From Anaerolineae bacterium (GTDB lineage Bacteria; Chloroflexota; Anaerolineae; Anaerolineales; UBA4823), in assembly GCA_041481345.1 (NCBI GenBank), contig JBGPBQ010000002.1, positions 1 through 45,850 of the forward strand: 45,850 nt of DNA, read 5' to 3'. The position numbers were made by a program, and so were the translations under genes. Below the pieces are notes generated by a model. That model was not told the DNA's origin. It searched no databases and saw only the letters and a list, made by a program, of their open reading frames with translations. Position 1 is the stretch's first letter. Each line of letters opens with the position of its first letter. This document shows positions 1,118 through 45,524 of this stretch, piece after piece.

Positions 1118-1145
1118 TTTAGGCATTGATAGGAGGCATTTTACG

Positions 1146-6638: not shown

Positions 6639-6675
6639 GTTTATTTTCTAACTCCTTTCAGGACTTGACCTTGAA

Positions 6676-6710
6676 AGCTAATTGCCAGATGCTAACTGCT
6701 AATTGCCAAC
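6676..6710. repeat. Short heptanucleotide tandem repeat (5 units, TGCYARN)
   Basis: AGCTAAT TGCCAGA TGCTAAC TGCTAAT TGCCAAC, immediately upstream of the ATG at 6712. Confidence 0.6.
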
Positions 6711-6711
6711 C

Positions 6712-31890: not shown

Positions 31891-33654
31891 CTATTTTTGA
31901 TCTGCTTCATACGGCTGCACAGGTAAAGTAACCGTCAGGCTGGTGCCCTTGCCTGCTGAAGACTTTATAGATAATGTGGCGCCAATTAGCTCTGCCCGCT
32001 CATGCAGTCCGAGCAACCCAAAATGACCCTTGGCGGCGTATTCCGCCGGGTTGTCCGGCAAATTGAAACCCAGCCCATTGTCAACCACCTGTAAAGTCAC
32101 TGCATTTGACGAGAAATTTATACTTAGCGATGCCCACTGCGCATGGGCATGCCGGGTGATATTACTGCAGGCTTCTTGTGCCATCCGGTATAGCGCAAGT
32201 TCGGTCGAAGCCGGCAGCCGTCTTTCGATTCCCTGATGGTGGAACTCCATGCTCGCACTCATCCCATCGCCAGTCTCACGCGCCAGCATCTCGAGCGCAG
32301 GCACCAGACCCAGGTCTTCCAGGTACACCGGTCGCATTGCCCGGGTGAGCCGGCGCAGGTTCTCAATCGTCTGCTCGGTTAGCAACATGATCTCATTCAA
32401 TTCGTCTGATTCAGGGGCGGGCTCGCGTGAAGCTGACTGATGCCCAAGCTGGGCCAGCTGCACCCTCTGCTTGAGGGCAATCAATGCCTGTAGGGTGTCG
32501 TCATGCAGCTCACGTGCCAGACGGCGGCGCTCATCCTCCTGAGCCTCGGTAATCGCACCGATGTAGCCATGTAGGCTGCGTTGGGCCTCATCGACCTTAT
32601 CTGCCATCTGGATCAGCTCTTTTTGCAATTGCTGTATCTCGGCAATCCCGCCCACCGGCTCCTGGATGGTCTTAAAATCTCCCGCTGCCAAGGTGGCGGT
32701 CTTGGATTCCAAGGCGCGCAGCGGTCTGACCACCTGGCTTGCCCCAAACCACAGCGCCAGCAGCATGATAAGCACCGCCGGAACGAGCACCAATGGGGCA
32801 ATTTGCGAACTTTGTAAGGTGGGTGTGGAGACGGCTTGCCAGGATTCTTCGGTGATCAACGCCCACGCTGCTGCAGGCACCGGGCTGTATGCCGTCACAT
32901 GCTCATCACCGCCGACTTTCACGTAAGCTGTACCGCTCTTGCCTTGCAGGGCTTCCGCCACTCCCGGGTGTTGCGCACTTCGGTCGCTAAAACCCCCAGC
33001 GTTATACAGAATCTGGTTATCCGCCCCTACCAGCATGATCGACAGCTGCCCGTCTGAGGGTAGGATATCGCCAAGGGTCGATTCGACCAGTTTGTTAACC
33101 GAAAACGCCCCCAACAGCAAATTATTATTACCAAGCCTGGTTGAGATCAATCCAATCGAAGTTGTGTTACCAGAGAGCTGGGTTACCACTAGCTTGCCAG
33201 GTTGTGCCGCCAGGCGGGCAAATACCGCCGGCCAATTTAGGTTCTCCGCAGTCAACTCAGTCATCACTTGAGGATCTCCCTGGATAGAGACTTGCTCCCC
33301 ATGCGGGCTGAATATCGCCACACCGGCATCGAAATCGGGCATCAGGGAGCTTATGCTAGCCAGGGTGGTGGTGATTGGTTGGGAGGAATTCGCTGAGAGC
33401 AGATCCGCGATGATTTGCATTTCTTTCATCCGGTAATCTACCTGGGCATTGAGCGCGCTTGCTGCGGTACGCACAGCCCTTGCATCCCTCTCACCCACTA
33501 TATTGCGCATGGCTTGTTGGTGGATGCTGAGGCTGCCGAAGGTGATCGCCACTAATAGGAGCGTCAGCGGTAGCAAGATTATCGCAAATAGCTGCAGCAC
33601 CAATCCCAGGGCAGGCAGCTTAATCCCGAACTTTGGGCGCTTGGACGCCTTCAT
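31891..33654 (-). CDS. Sensor histidine kinase (HisKA_3 / NarX-type) with periplasmic sensor and HAMP domains
   Basis: ERRRLARELHDDTLQAL H-box and HATPase motifs (DNGLGF, GLLGLHERAELIGATL). Two TM segments flank a domain of about 270 aa. I prefer the start at MKASKRPKF (33654), 10 nt after the regulator stop, over the track start at 33819. Confidence 0.85.
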   Translation of the reverse strand: MKASKRPKFGIKLPALGLVLQLFAIILLPLTLLLVAITFGSLSIHQQAMRNIVGERDARAVRTAASALNAQVDYRMKEMQIIADLLSANSSQPITTTLASISSLMPDFDAGVAIFSPHGEQVSIQGDPQVMTELTAENLNWPAVFARLAAQPGKLVVTQLSGNTTSIGLISTRLGNNNLLLGAFSVNKLVESTLGDILPSDGQLSIMLVGADNQILYNAGGFSDRSAQHPGVAEALQGKSGTAYVKVGGDEHVTAYSPVPAAAWALITEESWQAVSTPTLQSSQIAPLVLVPAVLIMLLALWFGASQVVRPLRALESKTATLAAGDFKTIQEPVGGIAEIQQLQKELIQMADKVDEAQRSLHGYIGAITEAQEDERRRLARELHDDTLQALIALKQRVQLAQLGHQSASREPAPESDELNEIMLLTEQTIENLRRLTRAMRPVYLEDLGLVPALEMLARETGDGMSASMEFHHQGIERRLPASTELALYRMAQEACSNITRHAHAQWASLSINFSSNAVTLQVVDNGLGFNLPDNPAEYAAKGHFGLLGLHERAELIGATLSIKSSAGKGTSLTVTLPVQPYEADQK

Positions 33655-33664
33655 AAACTTACTT

Positions 33665-34342
33665 TCATTCTTCGGCAATGGTTCCGATGGTCTGCGAAAT
33701 CCACCCCAATGAGACCGCCCGCATAACCGCCTCAGTGCGGCTGCCGGCTTGCAGCTTGTTGAAGATATGCGCCAGGTGTCCCTGGACGGTACGGTCACTG
33801 ATGCCAAGCTGCACACCAATGGCTTTGTTGGTATAGCCTTTGGCGGCTAGTGAGAGCACTTCCAGCTCGCGTTCGGTTAGCTGCTCCACTTGCACGGCTT
33901 CCCTTGGTTGGCTGAGCTGAGCCAGCAGCTTTTGTGTGATTGTTGGGTCTAAAACCGATTTACCGGCGTACACATCGTGCACCGCCTGGATGAGATCAGA
34001 CGGGGAGGCAGTCTTCAGCACATAACCGTTCGCACCCGCCTGTAAAACGGCCAGCACATACGGGTCATCGTCGTATGCCGTCAGGATCAACACACCCACT
34101 GTGGGGAAATTTGCCCTCACCCAACGCGTGACTTCAATCCCACTGTACTTCGGCATTTGAATGTCGAGCACCGCAACATCCGGCTGGCGCTGGCGGATCA
34201 GACTCTGCGCCATCTCGCCGTCATCGGCTTCAGCTATCACCTGGATATTGCCGGCACGTTCCAGGTATTGGCGGATGCCTGCCCGGACGATGGCATGATC
34301 GTCAGCCAGGAGAACAGCGATAGGGTCAGTTTCAAGTGTCAT
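33665..34342 (-). CDS. NarL/LuxR-family response regulator
   Basis: REC domain (LLADDH, DVAVLDIQMP, the T in ILTAY, the K in VLK) plus LuxR HTH (LTERELEVLSLAAKGYTNKAIGVQLGISDRTVQGH). Confidence 0.9.
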   Translation of the reverse strand: MTLETDPIAVLLADDHAIVRAGIRQYLERAGNIQVIAEADDGEMAQSLIRQRQPDVAVLDIQMPKYSGIEVTRWVRANFPTVGVLILTAYDDDPYVLAVLQAGANGYVLKTASPSDLIQAVHDVYAGKSVLDPTITQKLLAQLSQPREAVQVEQLTERELEVLSLAAKGYTNKAIGVQLGISDRTVQGHLAHIFNKLQAGSRTEAVMRAVSLGWISQTIGTIAEE

Positions 34343-35061
34343 ACTGAAATATTTTCAGGCTTCTGGGCTGCTCCTGAAACAGGTCTGGCAGCCGCTAATG
34401 GTTGGTCTGGTGAGGCGATAACATGGTCCAAATATGGATAAGTGTACCAGACGATTCCCAATCCAAACAGCATGCCAGTTAATAAGCGCATTAGTGAATT
34501 AAAAGTTCCAAACGTCTCACCTGAGTAGAAGGATAATGGGAATATGTGTTGAGTAATTGCAGCCAGCCACAAATTTCCATACCGGAAACCCTGCCCAATC
34601 CCCGCCAGGTCGCTTATGAAATGGCTGGTGCCGTCAATTGCCATAGGCAGCAGGAATAACGCCAGACCCCACCATGGAAACGGCTTGAGCTTACGACGCA
34701 GGGGCCACCATAACAACCCAAATATCCACAGGCTTGTGAACATAGACACCATCCGGTCAGACCAGGCCACTTTCCAGCCCATCTCCGGGCTGCCGATGAA
34801 CTGCCGTAGGATCGCCGGGTTGTTGGTCTGCTGCCAGGCGTTCTGGATATCGGTGAGTGAATACGTGAAATGGCTGCCGAAAAGGAAGTAGGAGCGTTCC
34901 GGCAGCTGATGGCACAGCCATGAATAGATGAAGTAGATCACTTTTGCCGCACCTTCCAGACCAGCGTGCATCAGGACGGGTGCCAGTAAGGGTAAGCATG
35001 CGTACACTCCCAACACAACCGTCAGGGGAATGATCCAATATCGACGGAGAAATATGCTCAA
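34339..35061 (-). CDS. DUF2085-family membrane protein
   Basis: CHQLPERSYF motif and multiple TM helices. Its stop overlaps the regulator start (ATGA). Confidence 0.7.
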   Translation of the reverse strand: MSIFLRRYWIIPLTVVLGVYACLPLLAPVLMHAGLEGAAKVIYFIYSWLCHQLPERSYFLFGSHFTYSLTDIQNAWQQTNNPAILRQFIGSPEMGWKVAWSDRMVSMFTSLWIFGLLWWPLRRKLKPFPWWGLALFLLPMAIDGTSHFISDLAGIGQGFRYGNLWLAAITQHIFPLSFYSGETFGTFNSLMRLLTGMLFGLGIVWYTYPYLDHVIASPDQPLAAARPVSGAAQKPENISV

Positions 35062-35127: not shown

Positions 35128-36147
35128 TTATTTAACCCCACAGCTCCCGCCGCCGCTGGGCGCTTGCTCGAGCAATCCATTCTGCGACAGATACTGGTGC
35201 ACGGCCTGGTATCCTGATATTGACGCATACTGGTAGCTCACCACCGTCTTGGCGTCCACCTGGGTGAAATCGCCTTTGTCGACAGATTTGAAGGCGGTAG
35301 CAATTTCCAACATTTGCTGTGGGTACCAAAAGGCGGTCACATATTTTGCAGCATCGAACATTTCAGCTGTGGATGCATCCTGCGAAGCCATGAGCTCCAG
35401 CAATCCCAACATCGCCATCCCATGGTTGCAGTCTGGGAAGTGGGTGGGGTTGTTGCAGCATGGCCGGTAAACCACAGAGGCCACATCCAGCAGCCTGGCT
35501 TGCTGTTCATCGGTTAGTGCCATGATTTTTGTGCTGGCATACAGCTCGGTCGGCTTTTTGACGCCCAGGGTCCACCCACCGGTGGAAGCAAATCCACCCA
35601 CCTGGTCTTTCCCGCCAGACATCATCGGTCCATCGGTGAGGATGGCGTTCTGGTTGGTCAACCCCAGCGCCCAGAAGAAATTCAGTAAAAAATAGGCATT
35701 CCCCGGCGTGAAAACGATGCTGGCCTTGGTCCCCTTTGACAGGATGGTTTTTTGGTCATCGGTCAGCGGTTGGTTTTGCTGCTGATACAGGCTGACGAAT
35801 TTGGCCATATCGATCGCCCCGGCAGCCACCAGCTGTGGACCGACATCACCAAACACAGCTGCCACTTTATAACCATCCGGTGGGTTGACCTCCTTCATGA
35901 GCGTCATCGCGTCTTGCTGACTTTGGGCTTGGCTTGTGGGAACAGCTGCATGCATCGACTGCCGCCCCATCATATATCCTCCTCCACCCCCGAGTGCAAA
36001 GACCACTAACAACACCAGCGCTTTGACAGCCACCCCTCGCCTCCGGTGGTCTGGTGGATTGGAGCCTGGATCATGATCAAGGGATGGATTATCAGCATTC
36101 GAGTGTTCCATTTGATCTGACATGTTCATTCTCCTTTGGTTTTTCAA
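35128..36147 (-). CDS. Membrane-anchored hypothetical protein with Cys/His motif
   Basis: Single TM VKALVLLVVFALGG, motif YRPCCNNPTHFPDCNHG, C-terminal GGGSCGVK. No family recognised. Confidence 0.5.
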   Translation of the reverse strand: MKNQRRMNMSDQMEHSNADNPSLDHDPGSNPPDHRRRGVAVKALVLLVVFALGGGGGYMMGRQSMHAAVPTSQAQSQQDAMTLMKEVNPPDGYKVAAVFGDVGPQLVAAGAIDMAKFVSLYQQQNQPLTDDQKTILSKGTKASIVFTPGNAYFLLNFFWALGLTNQNAILTDGPMMSGGKDQVGGFASTGGWTLGVKKPTELYASTKIMALTDEQQARLLDVASVVYRPCCNNPTHFPDCNHGMAMLGLLELMASQDASTAEMFDAAKYVTAFWYPQQMLEIATAFKSVDKGDFTQVDAKTVVSYQYASISGYQAVHQYLSQNGLLEQAPSGGGSCGVK

Positions 36148-36240: not shown

Positions 36241-36891
36241 TCAGGGGGATATCGTTGGCACAGGTATATCGCCGTACTCCTGCTGCAGCAGCTGGTCTAC
36301 CGATTGTTGTTCAGCGTTAAAAAAATCCTGGTCCATGCCAGCGTTCGTCAGGCTCACCTCGATCCTGCCCTGTTCACTGCTCAGGATCTGGCGGAATGCT
36401 TTGAGGTTGTAATAATCCGCCATTGCGACCGGCTTTCCCTGCTGGATCAGGCTGTACACCTTGTTATACTCCACCGCGATCGTGGTTACGTTCCTCCACG
36501 ACATGCCGAGCTCACTGGGAGGGATGGACTGGTTGTAGGCTTTAATCGCGATCGGGAAAGCGATCGTGTAAGGTTGACTGGCAGCTGTATCACTGCCGTT
36601 AATAGATCCCGCTTGGACGTCACCCAGGTATTCGATAATCAGATCTGCCGCCCGTTCGAGCAGCAGGATGGAGCGGTAGCTCATGACCAGCGGGGTTTCC
36701 GTCGGCTCGGGTTGAGTCGGCGGGGGTAATGTGGGGATCTCTACCCTGGGTGTGGATTCCGGTGAAGGGACTGCCAGAGTGGATGTCGATCCGACAGGAG
36801 TAATCGCCTGGAATGAGCATCCCGCCAGCGCCGACAAGGTGATCATAACCATCAGGCAACTGTAAAAATTAATCCTTCTGTACGGTGCCAT
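36241..36891 (-). CDS. Hypothetical lipoprotein
   Basis: Lipobox LSALAGCSF followed by a Pro/Thr-rich linker. Confidence 0.5.
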   Translation of the reverse strand: MAPYRRINFYSCLMVMITLSALAGCSFQAITPVGSTSTLAVPSPESTPRVEIPTLPPPTQPEPTETPLVMSYRSILLLERAADLIIEYLGDVQAGSINGSDTAASQPYTIAFPIAIKAYNQSIPPSELGMSWRNVTTIAVEYNKVYSLIQQGKPVAMADYYNLKAFRQILSSEQGRIEVSLTNAGMDQDFFNAEQQSVDQLLQQEYGDIPVPTISP

Positions 36892-36924: not shown

Positions 36925-37353
36925 TCATCCATCACCAGGAGCCGGCAGCGAGTGGACCGGATCATTTCCTGCCATGGGCGAATGACATGCACCTGGGGTA
37001 GATTGGGCTTGGTTTGTAACTAAACGCCGCATGGCTGCTACTAGCTGGGGGTCTGCACGCTGCTGCGGAGTGTCCACCACCGAGAACCAGGTCTGCCCCT
37101 CGTACCCATGGGCGATCATCGCCAGGGGTTGCCGGTGATCCTGATACACCAACAGTATCACCATCTGGCAGTCGCATTGGTCGGTCCCATGGTGGGGGCA
37201 GGGACAAGACGTGTGGGTCTGGCGGGCTATCTGCAGGTCAAAGGTGCGCATCACCGATAGACCTGCCCGGCGCGCCTGCTCTGTCACCCAACCCACGGCT
37301 TCGTCACAGGGCTGATCCAGTAGTGTAAGAGCGGTATTATCGCTCATAATCAT
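36925..37353 (-). CDS. Cys/His-rich DUF302-like protein
   Basis: GLSVMRTFDLQ..., then the CPCPHHGTDQCDCQ cluster. The ATG at 37353 overlaps the stop of the upstream small ORF (ATGA). The track start at 37365 is TTG. Confidence 0.5.
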   Translation of the reverse strand: MIMSDNTALTLLDQPCDEAVGWVTEQARRAGLSVMRTFDLQIARQTHTSCPCPHHGTDQCDCQMVILLVYQDHRQPLAMIAHGYEGQTWFSVVDTPQQRADPQLVAAMRRLVTNQAQSTPGACHSPMAGNDPVHSLPAPGDG

Positions 37354-37499
37354 TTCGTTGGCCAACCTCGATCGTTCATCTCTTCCTGCAGTATTTGCAT
37401 AAAGCTCATGTTCTCACCGAGGCATCCTGAACCGTTGACAAGTGTTTCGACCCGCTCCAATTCATTCAGAATGTTTTCCCACGATGAAATAATTTGCAT
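37350..37499 (-). CDS. Small ORF (49 aa), possibly translationally coupled
   Basis: MQIISSWENILNELERVETLVNGSGCLGENMSFMQILQEEMNDRGWPTK. ATGA overlap with the next gene. No clear SD sequence. Confidence 0.3.
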   Translation of the reverse strand: MQIISSWENILNELERVETLVNGSGCLGENMSFMQILQEEMNDRGWPTK

Positions 37500-37519: not shown

Positions 37520-38011
37520 TCAGGGTACCCAATTCGACAATACCGTCAAAGTCTTGTCGCCCCAGTTTGTATCATTGCTGGGCAGGTGTACGCGGAAGTC
37601 ATGCTTCCCATCCATACCTGCATGCATCATGAACTTCATGTCGAGGGTTGTGGTATCGCCAGGTTTAAGTGCCATCGAACCGATGGCAGGAGTAGGGGGT
37701 CAGCACCCCTCCGCGACATCGACATACGGGGTCTTGCTAAAGCGCAGTGTCTTGTCACCCACATTGGTCAGCGTGAACTTTACATCCACGGTCTGGCCCA
37801 GCTTGACGTCGCCCAGGTCCACTTTCTCCTGGCTCACCTTCAGACTCGGCGACCCGGTGACCATGATGGCTGCTTTAGATTGGGATGGCTTTCTGAAGGC
37901 GAAGAATATGCCGGTGATCAGCAGCAGGCCGCCTGCCAACAGCAGGATCATCGGCCATTGCTGTTTTCTCTTCCTGTTTTTGAGGGTTTTGTTTTGTTTA
38001 TGTTGGCTCAT
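37520..38011 (-). CDS. DUF1573-domain membrane-anchored protein with an in-frame TGA (selenocysteine candidate or nonsense mutation)
   Basis: 103 codons, then TGA (37700-37702), then 59 more in-frame codons to TGA at 37520-37522. Reads VDLGDVKLGQTVDVKFTLTNVGDKTLRF...VAEGC[TGA]PPTPAIGSMALKPGDTTTLDMKF...HDFRVHLPSNDTNWGDKTLTVLSN. The downstream part completes the DUF1573 fold. The TGA falls at the position of the conserved CGC motif. Confidence 0.6.
37671..37687 (-). other. SECIS-like hairpin 12 nt downstream of the in-frame UGA
   Basis: The mRNA reads UGA CCCCCUACUCCU GCCAUCG-GUU-CGAUGGC. This is a perfect 7-bp stem whose apical loop starts with GU, 19 nt from the UGA. Confidence 0.4.
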
Positions 38012-39006
38012 GGTGTAACCTCCGAATTAAATTGGAATGTCCATAAATAAGCGATTAATTCCCAGGTTTGGTCTTCAGTAAATATCGCCCCCCATGCGGG
38101 CATGCCCGTCCCCATACCGCCACGGATGATCTTTCCCTGCAGGTGGGCCGGGCTGGCGGAAAGCATCGTCGCTGGGTCGGTGAAGTTCGCTGGTCGCTGG
38201 GTATGCTCACCCGTATTTTGGTTTGAAGCTGTATTGGCAGAGCCTGCAGCTAATTGGTCAGCGAAAACCCCATCCCCGCCGCCCTTCTCTCCATGGCAGG
38301 CGGCGCAGTTGGCTGAATAAATTTCCTTGCCGGCTTGGACCTGTTCTGGGGTGGTGTTGGATTTCCACACCCACGCCACCAGGTCCCAAACTTCCTGTTC
38401 AGACAGGTCTTTATACGATTGGTCAGACCTGAGTGCTGACCATAAGTCCAGCGGGGTATGGGAGAGGTAATAATCGCGGTTTAAATATGTTACCGGCACG
38501 CTGAGGTTGAGCAACGCCCCGCGCCAGGCAGCGGGTATACCCACTGGGGTGACTGCGGCTTTGTGAGCTGTGTCGATATCCAGCCCCAGCGAGACGTACA
38601 ATGGCGGCTTGGCCGGTTCTGTCTTCGCAGGCGGGTCGGTGACTTCGATCGTACCGCGCATGCGCCAGTGGTTCAGGCTGCACCAGCGTGTGCAGTAAAA
38701 GGTATATTTGCCTGGTTTGGTGAACACCAGTGTGATGTCGGTCATTTCACCCGGGTTGATTTCCACGGCGGGCTGGTTGAGCTGGCCGACGGCGAATCCG
38801 TGCGATACATCATCCGAAGTCAGCCGCAGATGAAGCGGTTCACCCACTGCCACAGTCAGATTTTCAGGGGTCCACCCACCTTTCTCCGCCATGCGGGCAT
38901 GTATCACGATTCCGTTTGAGCCGTGCACGGTTTTGATCACCGGGATGGAAATCACCGCTGCCAGCCCCAGAATGACGATACCGCGTGCGATCCATTCTTT
39001 AATCAT
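38008..39006 (-). CDS. CuA-type cupredoxin domain fused to a mono-heme cytochrome c, membrane-anchored
   Basis: The full CuA ligand pattern is H-x35-C-x3-C-x3-H-x2-M (SHGFAV...FYCTRWCSLNHWRM). C-terminal CAACHGEKGGGDG heme site with distal MPAWG. One N-terminal TM helix. Confidence 0.8.
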   Translation of the reverse strand: MIKEWIARGIVILGLAAVISIPVIKTVHGSNGIVIHARMAEKGGWTPENLTVAVGEPLHLRLTSDDVSHGFAVGQLNQPAVEINPGEMTDITLVFTKPGKYTFYCTRWCSLNHWRMRGTIEVTDPPAKTEPAKPPLYVSLGLDIDTAHKAAVTPVGIPAAWRGALLNLSVPVTYLNRDYYLSHTPLDLWSALRSDQSYKDLSEQEVWDLVAWVWKSNTTPEQVQAGKEIYSANCAACHGEKGGGDGVFADQLAAGSANTASNQNTGEHTQRPANFTDPATMLSASPAHLQGKIIRGGMGTGMPAWGAIFTEDQTWELIAYLWTFQFNSEVTP

Positions 39007-39009
39007 CGT

Positions 39010-40434
39010 CTACCCTGCCAGCAGCCATAAGAATGCGCCTGCATACACCAGGTAAAATGCCAATAGCGGATAATTGGTTGGGCGGCTTATCTTCTCGTCT
39101 GTTGTCGAAAGCTTCCGGGTCACCCGAGCCGACCAGAACACACTCACCACCAGCAAGAACACCTGCAGCAATAGGCTGATCTGCGAAACATCCAGGCCCC
39201 CACCACTGCTGGCGCCCAGGAGCTTCCAACCCCATCCGAATGGATCGTTGATTACACCTACGACGAAGTTAAGCTTGGGGAGCGCGAAGGAGATGGTGAA
39301 CGCCATCCAGGCCAATAATCCCAGCGGCAGCAGCCCCTGCGCTTCCTGGGCAATCAACCGCCTCAGCGGCAGGCTGCTGTGACTGATTTTTTTCCAAGCA
39401 GCAACACACATGGCGAAGATTCCGGGCAGCACCAGCAGGTTAAGCGCCAGGAAGCTTGCCGCATACACCAGCCAAGCCTGCGATCCGATATTGTATGCAC
39501 TCATCTTCAGCCAACCCCACGGTCCAAGGAAGACCGCCGAAAACACGAGCGCCGAGCCCAGCATGATTAACGCCAGAAAGGTTTCATCCAGCCGGGTTGA
39601 TTGGACGGGTCGTGCCAGGTCGGTCCCGTACGGGCGCAGGTTTAACGCCAGGTTATCTTTCGGGCACGCCCGCAGGCATTCCATGCATAGCCCGCAGGTC
39701 GAGCTGTCCTTCATCGCCAGCGGGTACACACCCCACGGGCACGCCCGGTAGCAGGATTTATCTCCATGTTGGGCGCATACTTCCTTATCGATCACCTTCA
39801 CTTCAACCGGGGCTGCCTTGGAATACATCCCGCTGAAACCACCAATCGGACAAATATAGCTGCAAAACGCACGGTGCTCGAACACCAGGCTCATCCCGAC
39901 CGCCAGCGCGAACAGCGCCAGCAGCACCCAGCCTGTGACTTGCGGGTCGGTGAGAGTGATGGCGCTGAACATGCCGATCAGCAGGAACCCGCCGGATTGA
40001 AGCCATGAACCTCGGAGTGCCTTGGGCCATTTTAGATGTAGCCCCAGCCTGCGTTTACCCTTTTCCATGATTCCACCCTGCTGCAGCCATTCTCCCGGCA
40101 GCGGGATGGGGCAGATGCTGCACCACGAACGCCCGCCCAGGGGGATGAACCCCAGCTTGAGCGTCGTCCACCAGGCAATCCACACCATGATAATAGCGAA
40201 ATTATGGCTTCCAACTCGCGAGCCCAGCAGGGCAACCACAATGGTGAACAAGAAACCCATCAACATGACCACCCGCAGGAGGAATTGCGGCCATGGGTTT
40301 GCAAGCGCTGCTTGCAGCCAGGGTATGCGGTATAAGTTGAGCTGTGTAGGAAGTGTGCGCGTCTTCACGGGCTGCGGCACCGCAACGTCTATGGTTGCTT
40401 TTTCTGTCCAGGGGAATTCCTGCAGTCGGGTCAT
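39010..40434 (-). CDS. Polytopic membrane 4Fe-4S polyferredoxin (NapH/MauN/CcoG-like)
   Basis: CSICPIP and CSYICPIGG motifs, CYRACPWG and CGLCMECLRACPKDN cluster motifs, and at least 8 hydrophobic segments. The ATG at 40434 overlaps the upstream stop (ATGA). The track start at 40494 is not needed. Confidence 0.8.
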   Translation of the reverse strand: MTRLQEFPWTEKATIDVAVPQPVKTRTLPTQLNLYRIPWLQAALANPWPQFLLRVVMLMGFLFTIVVALLGSRVGSHNFAIIMVWIAWWTTLKLGFIPLGGRSWCSICPIPLPGEWLQQGGIMEKGKRRLGLHLKWPKALRGSWLQSGGFLLIGMFSAITLTDPQVTGWVLLALFALAVGMSLVFEHRAFCSYICPIGGFSGMYSKAAPVEVKVIDKEVCAQHGDKSCYRACPWGVYPLAMKDSSTCGLCMECLRACPKDNLALNLRPYGTDLARPVQSTRLDETFLALIMLGSALVFSAVFLGPWGWLKMSAYNIGSQAWLVYAASFLALNLLVLPGIFAMCVAAWKKISHSSLPLRRLIAQEAQGLLPLGLLAWMAFTISFALPKLNFVVGVINDPFGWGWKLLGASSGGGLDVSQISLLLQVFLLVVSVFWSARVTRKLSTTDEKISRPTNYPLLAFYLVYAGAFLWLLAG

Positions 40435-40874
40435 CTTCGTCCCTTCCACACACCCGCGAAGAGTGCCAGCCCAACCAAAGCCATTGCCCGCCATAACAAT
40501 GTGTTTTGCCCCACCTCAAGCTTTCCGGTCATGAAGGGGTGCATGTTCCCACAGGTCACCGTGCAGTGAAAGCGGAACGTACCACTTCGGTCTGCAGTAA
40601 ACGTGATGCGCGCCGTCTTACCGGGGTCCGCTGTGGTTTGCAGGTCATACCCATCGATGGCCAGCCCGTGAACCACATCTGTGGCCACCAGCTCGATTGT
40701 CACGCGGTCACCCGGATTAACCTTTACGACTGCCGGGGAGTATTCAAATCTGCTGGCTTCAACTCGAAAAGTACGTTCAGTCGGCGCGGCTGCTCCTGCT
40801 GGAACGGGTATGAAGATGACCGCTACTGCCAGCCCGGCGAGGATAACCCAATGCCACCAATGGTTTAATTTCAT
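40431..40874 (-). CDS. CuA-type cupredoxin-domain protein with N- and C-terminal hydrophobic segments
   Basis: H-x34-C-x3-C-x3-H-x2-M (VVHGLAI...FHCTVTCGNMHPFM), which is exactly the CuA ligand spacing. Confidence 0.75.
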   Translation of the reverse strand: MKLNHWWHWVILAGLAVAVIFIPVPAGAAAPTERTFRVEASRFEYSPAVVKVNPGDRVTIELVATDVVHGLAIDGYDLQTTADPGKTARITFTADRSGTFRFHCTVTCGNMHPFMTGKLEVGQNTLLWRAMALVGLALFAGVWKGRR

Positions 40875-40891: not shown

Positions 40892-41338
40892 TTACGGCAT
40901 GTTGGAAGGACCATACTGAGAGTAGGTCTGGTCGATATACGTTTTGATCTCGGGAGGGGCCTTACCCTGCTTGGATAATCTCATCACGTCCTGGGTAATA
41001 TCCACGCAGATGGAACAACCAAGAGCGTGTGAATCATAGGCTATCCGCCCGTTCGCGTCCGCGCCGGAGACATAGCAGGAGTAATTCGAGGTATGCCCGA
41101 TGTCACCACACCCGCAGTAGCATGGGATCTGTTTCATCATATCCGGGTTGGCAGCTGCGTACTGGTAGGCCTGCTGGACAACCGGCGGGGCGGACTTCAC
41201 TCCATCCGGCATGCCATCCATCGATGCCATCGGCAGGTTGCCCAGCCCGGAAGAGGCGCTGCTGCAGCCGGATAAAACCACTAAAAATATTGGGGAAATT
41301 ATCAGTAGAGAAATTACCTTTACCAGGGTTGATTTCAA
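40892..41338 (-). CDS. PCYCGC-motif lipoprotein
   Basis: A TTG at 41338 lies 8 nt after GGAGG and gives MKSTLVKVISLLIISPIFLVVLSGCSS (lipobox). Motifs IPCYCGCGDIGHTSNYSCY and GCSICVD. The track start at 41431 adds an unlikely Arg-rich extension. Confidence 0.7.
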   Translation of the reverse strand: MKSTLVKVISLLIISPIFLVVLSGCSSASSGLGNLPMASMDGMPDGVKSAPPVVQQAYQYAAANPDMMKQIPCYCGCGDIGHTSNYSCYVSGADANGRIAYDSHALGCSICVDITQDVMRLSKQGKAPPEIKTYIDQTYSQYGPSNMP

Positions 41339-41419
41339 TCCAGGTACCTCCGTTATTTGGGGATCTTCAGGGATTATACGGGCACGATCGGCTCGGGATG
41401 AGCGCCATCTGACGGGTGC

Positions 41420-41445
41420 GCCTATAGGCATAATTGCCTATATGG
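41420..41445. promoter_or_regulatory. Palindromic operator candidate upstream of the PCYCGC/cupredoxin operon
   Basis: Self-complementary GCCTATAGGC (41420-41429), then TGCCTATATGG (41435-41445), 80-110 nt upstream of the TTG start. Confidence 0.3.
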
Positions 41446-41652: not shown

Positions 41653-42444
41653 TTAAAACCACTTATCCAGGTTCTCCAGCCACTTGCGCACCGACTTGGG
41701 CGATTTCAAAACATAATCACCCCCGGTCGAGCGGATATAGCCGAAATACTGCGCCACTGAGATCGCCACACCATCATTGGCATGGATGGTCTGGAACGCT
41801 TCGGCATCATTATTGTCATCCCCAACGTAAACCAGGCGTGCTTCCTGCATGGGGAAGCTGTTCAGCAGGAAGGTGACCGCCTTGCCTTTGTGCGCCTTGG
41901 CTGAGCTGATCTCCAGGAATTTTTTCTGCTTGATCAGGCGGTATTCATCGGTGATCATGTCCTGGTCCAGGCTCTGCTGGATGGTGGAGATCACGTGTGT
42001 GGCTTCCTTCTCAGGGGCGAAGCGTGCGTGCAGCGCCAGTGACCAGCCCTTGTCCTCCAGGTAGTAACCTTTGCGCCCGTCAATGATCTCTTCCCAATGC
42101 GGTTTTAACCGTTCCAGGTAGGGGCGGACCAACGCATAATCCTCCCGATGGATCCGTTCTCCCTCCGGTGTTAGCACCTCGATGCCGTAAGTGCCGGCGA
42201 TGAAGATCCCCTCGACCGGCAACAGCGCCTGGAGGTCCTTTAACCGCCTCCCGCTGACAATCGCTACTCGAATCCTGCTTTTCCCGGCCAGCCGTTTGAT
42301 CAGCTCGATGACTTTTGGATCTGGCTTGATGATATCGGGTGTGCGGGTGAATTCCACCAATGTCCCATCATAATCGAGGAACAGCCATAACCTTTCAGCT
42401 GCAGACACCCATGCATTCAGCTCAATTTCAGACGCAAACTTCAA
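41653..42444 (-). CDS. otsB: Trehalose-6-phosphate phosphatase (HAD family)
   Basis: FLDYDGTLV, SGRRL and GDDNNDAEAF motifs. Confidence 0.85.
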   Translation of the reverse strand: MKFASEIELNAWVSAAERLWLFLDYDGTLVEFTRTPDIIKPDPKVIELIKRLAGKSRIRVAIVSGRRLKDLQALLPVEGIFIAGTYGIEVLTPEGERIHREDYALVRPYLERLKPHWEEIIDGRKGYYLEDKGWSLALHARFAPEKEATHVISTIQQSLDQDMITDEYRLIKQKKFLEISSAKAHKGKAVTFLLNSFPMQEARLVYVGDDNNDAEAFQTIHANDGVAISVAQYFGYIRSTGGDYVLKSPKSVRKWLENLDKWF

Positions 42445-43691
42445 ACCTCTCCTCCTCCTGTCAGCAGCGGAAGGATATCATGTTTGAAGATTGCCTGCCA
42501 GGTGAAATTTTTTCGGATACGCTGGCGCAAGCGCTGAGTAGGGCTGTTTCGTGCCCATCCCAGGATCAGCTCTGCCACCTGGTCTGCTGATGAATCCGCC
42601 GAAAACCGGATCACCTCCTGGCCTCCAATCTCTTCCGACGCAGGGATTTCCGTGCTGAAGATGGGCATGCCAATCAATCCCGCTTCCAGGATCGGCATCC
42701 CGAACCCCTCCCTGTGGCTGGGCATGAACAGCACGTCGCAAATTCGGTAAAGTTCTCCCACCAGCGGTAAACCAATCGCATACTCGTTTTCCCCTTGCGG
42801 ACCCGATGAATACACAAACCCAGATTCCCGCTCGACACCCAACTTCGAGCGCAGCTCCAATAAGCTGTGATAATATGCCATGTCTTCGGGGTCATGTGGG
42901 TCGGGTGGACCGGTGACTACAAGCTTCGTGCGGATGCTCTTAGATACAAGGCTGGCAGTGACCTGCAGGGCGAGCTCGATATTCTTTGCCTGGGTGACGC
43001 GAACCGGCATCAAGAGAATCAGGTCGGCCTCATTCAGCCCGAGGCGCTCGACCAGCACCTGACCCTCATCTGACAGGCTGTATATGTCCGCCGGGTCGAC
43101 CCCATCGTACACCACCTGGATTCGCTCAGGTGCGCAATGAAATAATCCTGCCAGCTCTGCCTGGCGGTGGAGCGATACTGTCACGTAAGTTACATCTTCC
43201 CGATATGTTCGCAGCAGGTCCCACGGGTAGCCTGGATGTACATTTGGCCTCGAGTGGGAGCTGGTCCAGGTGAAATCATGGCACCAGGCGATGCAGTGTT
43301 TGATCTTCCCCTGGTCGAGCAGTCGAATCAGGGCTGCCGTCAGTGGCAGGTTGAAATGCTTGGTAAACACATTGTGGATGATGACATGATCCATCCCCTC
43401 AATGGCAGCTTCTAATGCTTTCTCGATGCTAGCTGTTAATAACTCAAAATCATCCGGGACTTTGCCGTCTTCCAGCTGCTGGCTGGCCTGAACGATCTGC
43501 GGATGGCGGGAATCCATTTCTGGAATTCGGATAAACTCCGCCCCATCTGGGAGGGCAGCCTTTTCACCAGCACCGGCGATCAATGTCACCGGGTAGCCGG
43601 CACCGAGAAGCAATGAAGCGTGCGCCTGGATCACCGCCTCGACCCCTCCTACCACCGGAGGGAGTGAGTAATGCAGGATCGCGGTTTTCAT
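42441..43691 (-). CDS. GT4-family (group 1) glycosyltransferase
   Basis: GT-B fold signatures. The C-terminal EGFGMPILEAGLIGMPIF contains the E-x7-E motif. ATGA overlaps on both sides with otsA and otsB. Confidence 0.8.
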   Translation of the reverse strand: MKTAILHYSLPPVVGGVEAVIQAHASLLLGAGYPVTLIAGAGEKAALPDGAEFIRIPEMDSRHPQIVQASQQLEDGKVPDDFELLTASIEKALEAAIEGMDHVIIHNVFTKHFNLPLTAALIRLLDQGKIKHCIAWCHDFTWTSSHSRPNVHPGYPWDLLRTYREDVTYVTVSLHRQAELAGLFHCAPERIQVVYDGVDPADIYSLSDEGQVLVERLGLNEADLILLMPVRVTQAKNIELALQVTASLVSKSIRTKLVVTGPPDPHDPEDMAYYHSLLELRSKLGVERESGFVYSSGPQGENEYAIGLPLVGELYRICDVLFMPSHREGFGMPILEAGLIGMPIFSTEIPASEEIGGQEVIRFSADSSADQVAELILGWARNSPTQRLRQRIRKNFTWQAIFKHDILPLLTGGGEV

Positions 43692-45229
43692 AAACCAAGC
43701 TCAACGATGGTTTCCAGCTGCCTGCACAGCCAATCGACGATATCCTCCCGCTCGACAAGGCTGCGTAATCGCTCAGCTTTCTCTTTTCGTTCGTCAGGCG
43801 GCATGACCAGCGCCTGGTGCAGCGCACTGGCAGTCGTGGAGATATCCAGCGGTGGGATGACCAGCGCACCCGACCCAAGCTGCTCGTGGGCGCCTGTCCG
43901 TTCAGAGAGCACCAACACCCCTTGCTGTTGGTTGACCACCGGACCTTCCTTAGCGACCAGGTTCATCCCGTCTGCAATCGAATTTACCAGCAGCACATCA
44001 TACAGCTGCATGGCTGCCACAGCGCGCGGATAGTTTTCTCCCACCATCACCCGCACCGGCTCCCAATTACTGTCCCCATATTTGGCGTTCACCTGACCGG
44101 CAGCCCCCATTAATTCGTTCAGATAATTTTGATATTGCTCCACCTCCATACGGGAGGGGACTAATAATGCCAGGAATTGCACCTTGCCGCGGTGCTCCGG
44201 GTACAGCTCGAGCAGCTCATCAAATGCCTGGAAGCCGCGCACAATATTCTTGCTGGGTTCGATGCGATCGATGCGCAGGATCAACGGGCTACCGCCGTAT
44301 TGTTCCAAAAATGACTTGTGATGTTCCGCCACCTCCTCCGACAGGGCCAATCGTTTGAGTGCCTTCACGTCAATCGAGATCGGGAATTCGCGCACATGGG
44401 TGGTATGGTTCCGATACCACACCCGGCTTTTTTTGAAATTCACATGCGCCCTCGGTAAGTGGCTCTCACACGTGCGGATGAAGTTCAAGGCATCCTCCCG
44501 CGTTTGGAACCCCAGCAAGTCCACCGAGCACAAACCTTCCAGGATGCTCTGCCGCATGCGTGGTGGCAGTAAGCCCCAATCTTCAGCTCCAGGCCAGGGG
44601 ATGTGGATGAAATGCATCAGGGTGTATTTTTTCCGCGGGCGGAATACTCTGCGGATGTAATACGGCGCCAGGTACAGGTGATAGTCCTGGAGCATCACCA
44701 AAGACGGCTGCCCTTTTGCCAGGATTTGTTTCGAGACCGCCTCTGCAAACTGCCGGTTGACCACCATATATCCATTTTGCCAGTTCTGCCAAGTGGTGCG
44801 GTCAATCGTCGGCGAGCGGAAGATATCCCACATCGAATGCTGCAGGAACCACAGCAGCGGGTTAGCGATCACTTTGTAATAGCCATCATAGGCAGATTCT
44901 GCTGACGTTACGAACTGCACCTGCATCGACCCACCTCCCTCAGCGATGGACACCATTCCCCCCTGCCAGGTCTTATCTTCCTCCGAGAGTGCGCTGGCGA
45001 TCCAGCAAGCATCCACGTGCTGTGCGATGCCGGATATCGCAGACACGAGCCCCCCTCCTCCGCTGCGCTGTGGCTGGATCACCCCATTCTCATCCGTATG
45101 GAAGGTAATCGGTCCATGGTTAGAGGCAATGATCAGCTGCCGGGTTTGTAGTAGCTGCTCCCACGAGCTGCAGTATATCTCACTGCCTTGTAAGCCGATC
45201 ATATCTGGAGAAGTATCCATGAAATTCAC
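43688..45229 (-). CDS. otsA: Alpha,alpha-trehalose-phosphate synthase (GT20)
   Basis: NPLLWFLQHSMWD, LQDYHLYLAP, FIHIPWP and LVNSIADGMNLVAKE. Confidence 0.9.
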   Translation of the reverse strand: MNFMDTSPDMIGLQGSEIYCSSWEQLLQTRQLIIASNHGPITFHTDENGVIQPQRSGGGGLVSAISGIAQHVDACWIASALSEEDKTWQGGMVSIAEGGGSMQVQFVTSAESAYDGYYKVIANPLLWFLQHSMWDIFRSPTIDRTTWQNWQNGYMVVNRQFAEAVSKQILAKGQPSLVMLQDYHLYLAPYYIRRVFRPRKKYTLMHFIHIPWPGAEDWGLLPPRMRQSILEGLCSVDLLGFQTREDALNFIRTCESHLPRAHVNFKKSRVWYRNHTTHVREFPISIDVKALKRLALSEEVAEHHKSFLEQYGGSPLILRIDRIEPSKNIVRGFQAFDELLELYPEHRGKVQFLALLVPSRMEVEQYQNYLNELMGAAGQVNAKYGDSNWEPVRVMVGENYPRAVAAMQLYDVLLVNSIADGMNLVAKEGPVVNQQQGVLVLSERTGAHEQLGSGALVIPPLDISTTASALHQALVMPPDERKEKAERLRSLVEREDIVDWLCRQLETIVELGL

Positions 45230-45524
45230 CCTTAGCTTTAAGCTCTGTAATCGTTATTTTTCACCCCAATAAACTACCCGCCCAAAAGGTTGTTGTATCC
45301 TGATCATTACGAGAAATGTCTGGCTGCCCTATCAGTCAAGAATGATCCCGCCTTTCACCTTGGTTTGCATATATCGTGTTCCAATCTCACCCGCAAAACC
45401 TTAACCCATTCCATACTCCCTCCCCTTTAAGGAAGATTATTATACCGTTTCGCGCCCTCCGCCATGTAAAAAACGAAAGGAGGATTTGCATTCAGTCCTT
45501 CCGATAGACTTATCGATATTTTTT

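What the first reader, a model, noticed from the sequence alone, without database searches (positions are those of the whole stretch)
37520..38011. In-frame TGA at the conserved Cys position of a DUF1573 protein, with a SECIS-like hairpin 12 nt downstream
- The ORF called to 37700 stops at ...VAEGC-TGA.
- The same frame continues for 59 codons (PPTPAIGSMALKPGDTTTLDMKF...TLTVLSNWVP) and supplies the missing second half of the DUF1573 domain.
- The TGA aligns with the second Cys of the family's CGC motif, the classic Cys/Sec exchange position.
- Twelve nt after the UGA there is a perfect hairpin, GCCAUCG-GUU-CGAUGGC. Its apical loop begins with GU and lies 19 nt from the UGA, within the window described for bacterial SECIS elements.
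- The neighbouring PCYCGC family is, as far as I recall, annotated as including selenoprotein members.
- The alternative is a Cys-codon to TGA nonsense mutation.
Basis: partly seen in the sequence, partly recalled or inferred. Interest (0 to 1): 0.75.

Follow-up and report, generated by a model that had tools for sequence, protein, structure and literature searches.

The report
Unannotated selenoprotein gene in Anaerolineae
The "stop" codon in the middle of this small membrane-anchored protein gene almost certainly encodes selenocysteine, which defines a widespread selenoprotein family in Anaerolineae bacteria that public databases cut short at 103 residues.

Summary

- **Gene.** It lies on the minus strand at 38011-37520 and has an in-frame TGA at 37702-37700 (...VAEGC-TGA-PPTPAIGSM...).
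- **Hairpin.** A hairpin at 37688-37670 follows the TGA by 11-12 nt.
- **Conservation.** In 80 species-level genomes, nearly all Anaerolineae, the same codon is TGA in 75 and TGC (Cys) in the others. It is never TAA or TAG. The 59-60 downstream codons are always open and conserved.
- **RNA constraint.** In TGA forms, synonymous sites of the hairpin codons are frozen: ATC 74/74, GGT 72/72, TCG 66/66. Stem pairs covary, with CG<->UA switching at least 8 times and never unpaired. G23/U24 sit at the same distance from UGA as in E. coli fdhF.
- **Cys forms.** They keep the amino acids but lose the hairpin (mean MFE -2.3 vs -9.3 kcal/mol).
Sec does not align with the second Cys of DUF1573's CGC. It is the next residue, giving a vicinal Cys-Sec (GCUPP). 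This differs from the known UGC DUF1573 selenoprotein, OS_HP2.
- **Context.** The gene sits in a conserved PCYCGC / CuA / NapH-like / CuA-cytochrome c cluster. A metal or redox role is inferred only.
- **Gap.** The Sec machinery could not be checked in this genome.

The parts
37520..38011 (-). Complete selenoprotein gene: 163 codons including Sec104, plus the stop. It is currently called as a 103-aa ORF (37700-38011).
   Evidence: Translation. The Pfam domain spans the TGA. Full-length Cys homologues of 163-170 aa exist.
37700..37702 (-). In-frame UGA read as selenocysteine (residue 104), in the motif E-G-C-U-P-P.
   Evidence: The same codon is TGA in 75 of 80 genome loci and TGC in 6 genes, never TAA or TAG. 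The next base is always C.
37670..37688 (-). SECIS-type hairpin UGCCAUCG-GUU-CGAUGGCA, encoded by codons 108-114 (P-A-I-G-S-M-A). The invariant loop bases G (37680) and U (37679) are the 23rd and 24th nt from the U of UGA.
   Evidence: MFE -10.9 kcal/mol. 93.6% of cells are paired, with covariation at pairs 16-32 and 17-31. Synonymous sites are frozen. The hairpin is absent from Cys forms.
37892..37957 (-). N-terminal signal-anchor transmembrane helix (about residues 19-40), preceded by a Lys/Arg-rich segment. This places the domain outside the cytoplasmic membrane.
   Evidence: Sequence. The AlphaFold2 model of homologue P0001 has a helix at residues 19-43. The topology is inferred from the positive-inside rule.
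37550..37849 (-). Ig-like beta-sandwich domain (DUF1573 / HYDIN-VesB, ASH/PapD-like), residues 55-154.
   Evidence: Pfam. The AF2 domain has pLDDT of about 95. Foldseek matches HYDIN PapD-like, OCRL ASH and VesB/VesC Ig domains.
37586..37630 (-). Conserved Met/His motif M128-M129-H130-x2-M133-x-G-x-H137-x4-H142, a candidate soft-metal ligand set together with Cys103 and Sec104.
   Evidence: M129, H130, M133 and H137 are invariant and H142 nearly invariant in alignment A3. The motif is conserved across 81 loci. A ligand role is inferred, not shown.
37520..37522 (-). True stop codon (TGA) of the gene.
   Evidence: Orthologues end at the same place with TAA, TAG or TGA.
38008..39006 (-). Upstream operon gene: a CuA-type cupredoxin (C-x3-C-x3-H-x2-M) fused to a cytochrome c. 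Its stop overlaps the selenoprotein's ATG (ATGA).
   Evidence: Pfam and NCBIfam. Linked in 53 of 80 loci.
39010..40494 (-). NapH/MauN-type membrane ferredoxin (Fer4_5).
   Evidence: Linked in 49 of 80 loci.
40431..40874 (-). Small CuA-type cupredoxin protein.
   Evidence: Linked in 55 of 80 loci.
40892..41431 (-). PCYCGC-domain protein (PF13798), here in an all-Cys form.
   Evidence: Linked in 55 of 80 loci.
36925..37365 (-). Conserved downstream gene of 146 aa with a Cys/His-rich motif (SCPCPHHGTDQCDC). It matches no known family.
   Evidence: ORF. No Pfam or NCBIfam hit. Found in 30 of 80 loci, immediately downstream of the selenoprotein gene in most of them.
31891..34342 (-). Two-component system (HisKA_3 sensor kinase plus LuxR-type response regulator) that travels with the cluster.
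   Evidence: Found in 54 and 57 of 80 loci.

Best explanation
The TGA at 37702-37700 is a selenocysteine codon. The gene encodes a 163-residue selenoprotein.

**Decoding mechanism.** This is the established bacterial pathway, inferred here rather than shown.
- The mRNA folds into a 7-8 bp hairpin 11-12 nt downstream of the UGA.
- SelB-GTP carrying Sec-tRNA(Sec) binds the apical G-U of that hairpin.
- SelB delivers Sec when the ribosome reaches the UGA. The following C gives a weak termination context.

**The product.**
- It has a basic N-terminus and one transmembrane helix. An Ig-like (DUF1573 / ASH-PapD-like) beta-sandwich sits on the outer face of the membrane.
- Its invariant centre is a vicinal Cys103-Sec104 (GCUPP). 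A conserved Met/His motif (MMHxxMxGxHxFxVH) lies nearby in sequence.

**Likely function (inferred, about 35% confidence).**
- The gene is translationally coupled to, and evolutionarily linked with, two CuA cupredoxins (one fused to cytochrome c), a NapH-like membrane ferredoxin and a PCYCGC protein.
- I therefore propose that the Cys-Sec/Met/His site binds a soft metal, most plausibly Cu(I), or cycles as a selenenylsulfide.
- In either case it would serve assembly or redox maintenance of this extracytoplasmic copper/haem electron-transfer module.
For: **Shown directly**
- The TGA is conserved in 75 of 80 species-representative genomes plus the window. TGC occupies the same codon in 6 genes, and no other stop is ever found there.
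- The downstream 59-60 codons are open and conserved in all 76 TGA genes. Final stops vary between TAA, TAG and TGA.
- More than 90 of the 120 listed database homologues are cut at exactly 101-105 aa. Full-length homologues read GCCPP, or GCWPP. The W is a TGA read with another genetic code.
- The hairpin is present in all 76 TGA genes. 93.6% of cells are paired. Pair 17-31 is CG in 54 and UA in 18 sequences, with none unpaired. That pair switched at least 8 times on a tree, and pair 16-32 at least 24 times.
- Hairpin codons show no synonymous variation (ACC 33/33, ATC 74/74, GGT 72/72, TCG 66/66). All other conserved codons use 2-6 synonyms. The 6 Cys forms use 4 different Gly and 4 different Ser codons.
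- Hairpin MFE averages -9.25 kcal/mol in Sec forms and -2.3 in Cys forms.
- The window's hairpin meets all four criteria of the published bacterial SECIS model (PMC13188914 Fig. 2). G23 and U24 are invariant, at the same spacing as in the E. coli fdhF SECIS, whose sequence was verified.
- TGA is the commonest ordinary stop in the window: 14 of 31 ORFs of at least 200 codons.
- Cys forms are nested at 3 places among Sec forms.

**Supporting the function proposal**
- Literature: Anaerolineales genomes encode SelB and Sec-containing formate dehydrogenases (PMC4959059).
- The neighbourhood is conserved in 49-55 of 80 loci, in two gene orders.
- The neighbours carry CuA motifs.
- C103, U104, M129, H130, M133 and H137 are invariant.
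- A database protein, P0201, carries a cytochrome c tail followed by this domain.
Against: - No selA, selB, selD or tRNA-Sec was found in the 45.9-kb window or in 1.25 Mb of flanks of the 80 related loci. The whole genome could not be searched, so the machinery is not demonstrated for this organism.
- No Rfam family matches the hairpin.
- No other selenoprotein gene was detected nearby to show independently that Sec is decoded.
- The inner five stem pairs never vary. They also encode the conserved I-G-S-M, so part of their conservation could be protein-level. The frozen third positions argue otherwise.
- For function there is no biochemical evidence. The Met/His motif is missing from some divergent Cys-form relatives. 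The spacing differs from the known PCuAC motif.
Confidence: 0.9

Rival explanations
1. SECIS-independent programmed readthrough or regulated termination. The hairpin stalls the ribosome and a near-cognate tRNA (Trp or Cys) reads UGA. This would give a mixture of a 103-residue truncated protein and a full-length non-seleno protein.
For: The Sec machinery is not demonstrated in this genome. UGA-C is a leaky context (established knowledge). Hairpins downstream of stops can stimulate readthrough.
Against: - The hairpin matches the bacterial SECIS model in loop sequence and in spacing to the nucleotide: G23/U24, as in fdhF.
- The only sense codon that ever replaces the TGA is Cys, the signature of a Sec/Cys pair.
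- Wherever Cys replaces TGA, the hairpin decays.
- Anaerolineales are reported to encode SelB.
Confidence: 0.05
2. A nonsense mutation in a Cys codon: a pseudogene, or a functional truncated 103-residue protein, followed by a decaying remnant.
For: TGC to TGA is a single-base change. Gene callers report a 103-aa ORF.
Against: - The same TGA is present in 75 species-level genomes at 43-82% protein identity.
- The downstream frames are intact and conserved in every case.
- The truncated product would end in the middle of a beta-sandwich.
Confidence: 0.01
3. Genetic-code reassignment in the lineage, with UGA read as Trp or Gly.
For: Some database entries show W at this position.
Against: - Those W are TGA translated by a gene caller.
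- TGA terminates 14 of 31 long ORFs in the window, including this gene itself and its upstream neighbour.
- Homologues have Cys at this position, not Trp or Gly.
Confidence: 0.005
4. Two separate genes: a 103-aa membrane protein, and a 51-aa peptide starting at the ATG of Met113 (37675).
For: An ATG lies 9 codons after the TGA, and the ORF listing reports a 51-aa ORF at 37520-37675.
Against: - The 8 codons between the TGA and that ATG (PPTPAIGS) are among the most conserved in the family.
- There is no ribosome-binding site there.
- The Cys homologues are single polypeptides.
- The domain model spans the junction.
Confidence: 0.01

Closest known systems
DUF1573 domain-containing selenoprotein = OS_HP2 family (NCBIfam NF041425), motif UGC. 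First predicted in Olavius algarvensis delta-proteobacterial symbionts (PMC1976440). Listed in Table 1 of PMC13188914.
   Same: Same Pfam superfamily (PF07610, an Ig-like beta-sandwich). Sec lies in the same loop after the same strand. Both are predicted by a Sec/Cys pair plus a downstream hairpin.
   Different: - The window protein scores 17.3 bits against NF041425, whose cut-off is 100.
- In OS_HP2, Sec replaces the first Cys of C-G-C.
- Here the first Cys is Glu, the second Cys is kept, and Sec is the next residue (E-G-C-U versus C-G-C-T). Sec is therefore three positions later and forms a vicinal Cys-Sec.
- The lineage (Anaerolineae) and the gene neighbourhood are also different.
E. coli fdhF SECIS (the reference bacterial SECIS)
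   Same: A hairpin inside the coding region starts 11 nt after the UGA. UGA is followed by C. The loop G and U are at nt 23 and 24 from the U of UGA (the roles of G23 and U24 are from established literature, recalled).
   Different: There is no bulged U in the stem. The stem is a perfect 7-8 bp closing a GUU triloop (or a GGUUC pentaloop). No extended lower helix is supported by covariation. No Rfam model matches.
Vicinal 'CU'-motif selenoproteins linked to soft-metal or organometallic chemistry (SaoC, SaoL, HgcA, MbdU, KCU-star; Table 1 of PMC13188914), and the GCUG redox centre of mammalian thioredoxin reductase
   Same: Adjacent Cys-Sec dipeptide. Sec is proposed as a soft-metal ligand, or as a selenenylsulfide redox pair.
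   Different: No sequence or fold relationship: no NCBIfam hit to any of them. Here the CU sits in an internal loop of an extracytoplasmic Ig-like domain, not at a C-terminus or in an enzyme active site.
PCuAC-type periplasmic Cu(I) chaperones for CuA assembly (motif H(M)X10MX21HXM). Functional analogy only, recalled from the literature.
   Same: A small extracytoplasmic beta-sandwich with a conserved Met/His cluster, encoded next to CuA proteins.
   Different: The fold family differs (ASH/PapD-like rather than cupredoxin-like) and so does the motif spacing. This protein has an additional Cys-Sec pair. Copper binding has not been tested.

Membership tests
Bacterial selenoprotein gene (Sec-UGA plus bSECIS) | In-frame UGA conserved among orthologues, with Cys in some homologues at the same position | tested here: met
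   TGA in 75 of 80 loci plus the window; TGC in 6 genes; no other codon. GCCPP homologues are abundant.
Bacterial selenoprotein gene (Sec-UGA plus bSECIS) | Protein-level conservation continues downstream of the UGA | tested here: met
   The 59-60 codons are open in all 76 TGA genes, with an invariant motif set. The Pfam domain spans the UGA.
Bacterial selenoprotein gene (Sec-UGA plus bSECIS) | bSECIS model: 3-9 nt loop, 4-16 bp stem, G in the first two loop positions, 16-37 nt from UGA to loop, MFE <= -7.5 kcal/mol (PMC13188914 Fig. 2) | tested here: met
   Loop GUU (or G-GUU-C), 7-8 bp stem, 19 nt spacing, -10.9 kcal/mol in the window. Orthologues range from -7.0 to -12.6.
Bacterial selenoprotein gene (Sec-UGA plus bSECIS) | RNA structure under selection (covariation; synonymous constraint tied to the UGA) | tested here: met
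Bacterial selenoprotein gene (Sec-UGA plus bSECIS) | selA, selB, selC (tRNA-Sec) and selD present in the same genome | not testable with these tools
   Absent from the window and from 1.25 Mb of flanks. Literature reports SelB and Sec-FDH in Anaerolineales.
Bacterial selenoprotein gene (Sec-UGA plus bSECIS) | Selenium actually incorporated into the protein | not testable with these tools
   Needs 75Se labelling or mass spectrometry.
Pfam DUF1573 (PF07610) | Score above the gathering threshold | tested here: met
   31.2 bits against 26.1 for the read-through protein. PF22544 scores higher, at 39.8 bits.
Pfam DUF1573 (PF07610) | Conserved C-G-C motif of the classical family | tested here: not met
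   hhalign (probability 96.7%) aligns E-G-C-U/C to C-G-C-T. Only the second Cys is shared.
OS_HP2 family (seleno)protein, NF041425 (the known DUF1573 selenoprotein) | NCBIfam score >= 100 bits | tested here: not met
   17.3 bits.
OS_HP2 family (seleno)protein, NF041425 (the known DUF1573 selenoprotein) | Sec in a U-G-C motif | tested here: not met
   The motif here is G-C-U-P-P. The UGC motif is taken from Table 1 of PMC13188914. No OS_HP2 sequence was aligned directly.
PCuAC-type Cu(I) chaperone (functional analogy) | H(M)X10MX21HXM motif and a cupredoxin-like fold | tested here: not met
   The motif here is MMHx2MxGxHx4H. The fold is ASH/PapD-like. The PCuAC motif itself is recalled from the literature.
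PCuAC-type Cu(I) chaperone (functional analogy) | Cu(I) binding and transfer to CuA | not testable with these tools
   Biochemistry is required.

The most novel reading that the evidence does not exclude
The invariant Cys103-Sec104 pair, together with the conserved Met/His residues, forms a selenolate-ligated copper site on the outer face of the membrane. The protein would then be a natural selenocysteine-copper protein. It would metallate or redox-service the two CuA cupredoxins encoded beside it, as a Sec-dependent functional analogue of the Sco/PCuAC assembly factors in Anaerolineae.
Probability: 0.2. Interest if true: 0.8.

Novelty: new member of a known kind. Interest (0 to 1): 0.55.

Why it matters
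- **Annotation.** A small gene present in at least 195 species-level genomes of a very common environmental class (Anaerolineae: sediments, sludge, groundwater) is truncated to about 103 residues in every listed or sampled Sec-form record. It is labelled 'hypothetical', 'FtsQ' or 'cbb3 subunit 3'. Correcting it restores half of a domain.
- **Catalogue.** It would add a family, or a distinct subfamily, to the catalogue of 119 bacterial selenoprotein families. Neither the 2026 review table nor any NCBIfam model covers it.
- **SECIS example.** It is a clean natural case of a SECIS hairpin dictating protein sequence. The residues flanking I-G-S-M covary as Ala/Ala, Thr/Val and Val/Thr because their codons pair. 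The constraint disappears when Sec becomes Cys.
- **Biology.** It puts a Cys-Sec pair on the outside of the membrane, next to CuA and cytochrome c proteins. That gives a testable lead on how these bacteria handle copper or extracytoplasmic redox chemistry, and on why they need selenium.

Tried and rejected
- **Sec machinery.** I looked for tRNA-Sec with ARAGORN in the window and in all 80 loci: none. tblastn with E. coli SelA, SelB and SelD against window plus loci gave no hit. Pfam scans of about 40 window ORFs found no sel gene. This says nothing about the rest of the genome.
- **Rfam.** No SECIS family matched, at gathering thresholds or at E <= 10.
- **A longer SECIS lower helix.** I tested pairing of the UGA region with the downstream P-G codons in two registers. 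Only the invariant CC/GG pairs hold, and the variable positions are unpaired in 40-70% of sequences. Rejected.
- **Other selenoproteins nearby.** I looked for TGA at Cys positions in neighbouring genes of the cluster across loci: none. A home-made bSECIS scan of 1.3 Mb recovered this gene. Nine other candidates with stems of 7 bp or more, most with long flanking frames, were translated. They were non-coding frames or adjacent genes.
- **Structure of the window protein.** Homologue P0001 (63% identical, Cys form) was modelled instead.
- **Solved structures.** PDB sequence searches gave only generic HYDIN/ASH similarity. Foldseek gave a fold but no functional analogue.
- **Literature.** Searches for DUF1573 and PCYCGC function found nothing functional. 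The Haft & Tolstoy 2025 paper was not held.
- **CRISPR array.** None was found near the Cas1 gene.
Full report
**1. What is in the sequence**

The feature lies on the minus strand. An ORF starts at ATG 38011, with GGAGG 7 nt upstream. Its ATG overlaps the TGA of the upstream gene. It reads 103 codons to ...VAEGC, followed by TGA at 37702-37700. The same frame stays open for 59 more codons, to a second TGA at 37522-37520.

With Cys placed at the TGA, the 163-residue product matches Pfam DUF1573 (31.2 bits, cut-off 26.1). It also matches the HYDIN/VesB Ig-like domain (39.8 bits). Both matches cover residues 55-154, straight across the TGA.

Twelve nt after the UGA lies GCCAUCG-GUU-CGAUGGC. One further U-A pair extends it to 8 bp (37688-37670) and leaves an 11-nt spacer. 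It folds at -10.9 kcal/mol, with z = -4.5 and 0 of 200 shuffles folding as well.

**2. Comparative test of the TGA**

- A protein search returned 249 relatives. More than 90 of the 120 listed are 101-105 residues long and end in ...EGC. About 17 are full length, at 140-170 aa.
- The full-length ones read GCCPP or GCWPP at the junction. One W form was traced to its DNA, and the W is a TGA read by a gene caller using another code.
- A scan of one genome per species found 195 genomes with a relative. The best 80 loci were fetched. Nearly all are Anaerolineae or Chloroflexota MAGs. They include the complete genome of Leptolinea sp. HRD-7.
- The codon after Gly-Cys is TGA in 75 loci plus the window, and TGC in 6 genes. 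It is never TAA, TAG or any other sense codon.
- In all 76 TGA genes the downstream 59-60 codons are open and conserved: PPxPxIGSMxLxPG..T...FMMH..MGGxHxFxVH..ND....L.VLSNW.P. The real stops vary among TAA, TAG and TGA.
- TGA is otherwise an ordinary stop in this organism. It ends 14 of the 31 ORFs of at least 200 codons in the window, including this gene and its neighbour.

These results exclude a nonsense mutation, a split gene and a reassigned code.

**3. The hairpin is a selected RNA element tied to the TGA**

- Every TGA gene has the hairpin. The 60 nt from the TGA align without gaps.
- On the 8-bp structure, 93.6% of cells pair, against 18.8-62.7% when the partner is slid by 1-3 columns.
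- Pair 17-31 is C-G in 54 and U-A in 18 distinct sequences, and is never unpaired. Pair 16-32 is G-C 29, A-U 27, G-U 10, other 6.
- On a neighbour-joining tree built without the hairpin codons, pair 17-31 switched state at least 8 times, and pair 16-32 at least 24 times. The covariation therefore reflects many independent events.
- The stem arms are codons, so the amino acids flanking I-G-S-M covary: Ala..Ala, Thr..Val, Val..Thr.
- The inner pairs are invariant, and so are their synonymous sites: ACC 33/33, ATC 74/74, GGT 72/72, TCG 66/66. Every other conserved codon in the 42-codon window uses 2-6 synonyms. One example is the Gly of P-G five codons later, with GGT 37, GGC 23, GGA 8 and GGG 5.
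- The six Cys-form genes keep I-G-S/A-M but use four Gly and four Ser codons. Their equivalent segment folds at a mean of -2.3 kcal/mol, against -9.25 for Sec forms.
- Cys forms are nested at three places among Sec forms. The hairpin has therefore been lost each time the TGA was replaced.
- The core sequence occurs 76 times in 1.3 Mb, and only after this TGA.

**4. Fit to the bacterial SECIS model**

The published model (PMC13188914, Fig. 2) sets four requirements. The window's hairpin meets each one.

| Requirement | This hairpin |
|---|---|
| 3-9 nt loop | GUU, or G-GUU-C |
| 4-16 bp stem | 7-8 bp |
| G in the first two loop positions, usually followed by G or U | G then U |
| 16-37 nt between UGA and loop | 19 nt |
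| MFE <= -7.5 kcal/mol | -10.9 kcal/mol |

- The invariant G and U are the 23rd and 24th nt from the U of UGA.
- I recalled the E. coli fdhF SECIS sequence and confirmed it in 5,419 E. coli genomes. In it the loop G and U also sit at positions 23 and 24, and the minihelix also starts 11 nt after a UGA-C.
- That G23 and U24 contact SelB is established knowledge, recalled rather than tested here.
- A longer lower helix is not supported. No Rfam model matches.

**5. What could not be shown**

- No tRNA-Sec, selA, selB or selD lies in the window or in the 1.25 Mb of related flanks.
- The tools gave no access to whole genomes.
- A single-cell genomics paper reports Sec-containing formate dehydrogenases and SelB in Anaerolineales, and SelB in Anaerolinea thermophila (PMC4959059). 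The trait therefore exists in the order.
- No second selenoprotein gene was found in the flanks.

**6. The protein**

- The N-terminus is Lys/Arg-rich and is followed by one hydrophobic helix.
- An AlphaFold2 model of the closest full-length Cys homologue (P0001, 63% identical) gives a helix at residues 19-43 and a confident beta-sandwich, with pLDDT of about 95 over the domain.
- Foldseek matches ASH/PapD-like Ig domains: HYDIN, OCRL, VesB/VesC, and a P. gingivalis protein of unknown function, 2qsv. PDB sequence searches agree.
- By the positive-inside rule the domain faces outward. This is inferred.
- Invariant residues include G102, C103, U/C104, P105, P106, M129, H130, M133, G135 and H137. 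H142 is nearly invariant.
- An exhaustive profile search found many more divergent Cys-form relatives. All have ...GCC(P/A/E/S)... at this position (the one exception in the sampled set, P0265, reads GCRPP), and most have the Met/His motif.

**7. Relation to known families**

- The 2026 catalogue of 119 prokaryotic selenoprotein families lists a 'DUF1573 domain-containing protein', motif UGC. I take this to be OS_HP2 from Olavius symbionts, from its position in the review tables. NCBIfam has a model for that family, NF041425.
- The window protein scores 17.3 bits against NF041425, whose cut-off is 100.
- I retrieved genuine classical DUF1573 proteins and aligned profiles (probability 96.7%). 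E-G-C-U aligns with C-G-C-T.
- The retained Cys103 is therefore the second Cys of CGC. The first Cys is Glu. Sec occupies the following position.
The true Sec/Cys exchange is with the family's own GCCPP homologues.
- Under the review's own rule, a different Sec position makes a distinct subfamily. This one is not listed there and has no NCBIfam model.
PF13798 appears in the catalogue as the CYCXC/OS_HP4 selenoprotein family. The copy in this window (40892-41431) is an all-Cys form.

**8. Genomic context and likely role**

The gene is the fifth in a minus-strand cluster.

| Coordinates | Gene |
|---|---|
| 40892-41431 | PCYCGC protein |
| 40431-40874 | CuA cupredoxin (HCTVTCGNMHPFM) |
| 39010-40494 | NapH/MauN-type membrane ferredoxin |
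| 38008-39006 | CuA cupredoxin (YCTRWCSLNHWRM) fused to cytochrome c |
| 37520-38011 | this selenoprotein gene |
| 36925-37365 | 146-aa Cys/His-rich protein |
| 36241-36891 | 216-aa ORF of unknown function (possible lipoprotein) |
| 35128-36147 | membrane protein with a PCC..H..DC.H motif |
| 34339-35061 | DUF2085 |
| 31891-34342 | LuxR-type response regulator and sensor kinase |

- Across the 80 loci the PCYCGC / CuA / NapH-like / CuA-cytochrome c module is adjacent in 49-55. It occurs in two gene orders, either upstream or downstream of the selenoprotein gene. The two-component system is present in 54-57.
- A subclade lacking the module instead has the PCC protein immediately downstream.
- One database protein, P0201, carries a cytochrome c tail followed by this domain.
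- Taken together, the evidence shows a vicinal Cys-Sec, conserved Met/His residues, an extracytoplasmic location and constant company with CuA proteins.
- From this I infer a soft-metal (most plausibly Cu(I)) binding role, or a selenenylsulfide redox role, in assembling or maintaining this copper/haem electron-transfer module.
- This is an inference at roughly one-in-three confidence. Binding of another soft metal such as Hg or Ag, or a purely redox role, is equally open.

**9. Verdict**

The Sec reading is supported at about 0.9. The mechanism is the canonical bacterial one. The finding is a new, widespread and currently mis-annotated selenoprotein family or subfamily. It is distinct from the known DUF1573 selenoprotein, and its gene neighbourhood is informative.

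It is a solid incremental discovery rather than a new kind of system. The most interesting open possibility is a selenocysteine-copper site.

Noticed in passing
window 37671-37687 (-); alignment A2 columns 16-17 and 31-32: The SECIS stem imposes covariation on the protein. The residue before I-G-S-M and the residue after it change together (Ala/Ala or Ala/Val, Thr/Val, Val/Thr or Val/Ile) because their first two codon positions base-pair. Cys-form homologues break the rule (Thr/Ser).
   Followed up: yes
database proteins P0004, P0006, P0008, P0009, P0023; L083 265-777: Some public protein records show Trp at the Sec position (GCWPP). In the one checked, the codon is TGA, so the gene caller apparently used a code in which TGA is sense. 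These records look like full-length non-seleno homologues but are Sec forms.
   Followed up: partly
L068 about 6100-7200: One Chloroflexota MAG carries two paralogues about 600 bp apart. One has TGC and no hairpin, the other has TGA and the hairpin.
   Followed up: partly
database protein P0201 (199 aa): A Cys-form relative whose N-terminal 75 residues are the C-terminal end of a cytochrome c (…GGMGTGMPSWGG…). It is either a genuine cytochrome c fusion with this domain or a run-on gene call. Either way it links the domain to the CuA-cytochrome c gene.
   Followed up: no
window 36925-37365 (-): A conserved 146-aa protein with no signal peptide and a dense Cys/His motif (HTSCPCPHHGTDQCDCQ). It lies directly downstream of the selenoprotein gene here and in most of the 30 other loci that have it. 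No Pfam or NCBIfam family matches.
   Followed up: partly
window 35128-36147 (-): A 339-aa membrane-anchored protein with the motif YRPCCNNPTHFPDCNHGMAM and no family match. In a subclade that lacks the CuA module (L064, L066, L074, L078), its homologue is the gene immediately downstream of the selenoprotein gene.
   Followed up: partly
window 45524-45850 (-): Bacterial RNase P RNA (class A), 190 bits, cut off at its 5' end by the end of the window.
   Followed up: no
window 1098-2183 (+): A Cas1 homologue with no CRISPR array detectable in the first 6 kb and no obvious cas neighbours among the ORFs scanned.
   Followed up: partly
window 7269-9581 (+) and 9889-11442 (+): A heavy-metal P1B-type ATPase with an HMA domain sits next to a multihaem c-type cytochrome (NrfA/MtrC-like hits), about 28 kb from the cluster. 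Further metal and redox genes are therefore on the same contig.
   Followed up: no
window 41653-45229 (-): Trehalose synthesis genes (GT20 OtsA-like, a GT4 glycosyltransferase and trehalose-phosphatase) lie directly upstream of the cluster. They are syntenic only in the closest relatives (L001-L003, L005-L007, L010).
   Followed up: partly
L062 (CAVPMW010000017.1): Several cluster genes in this locus show multiple in-frame stops in tblastn alignments. The locus name suggests a long-read MAG, so these are most likely assembly errors rather than decay. The selenoprotein gene itself is intact there.
   Followed up: no
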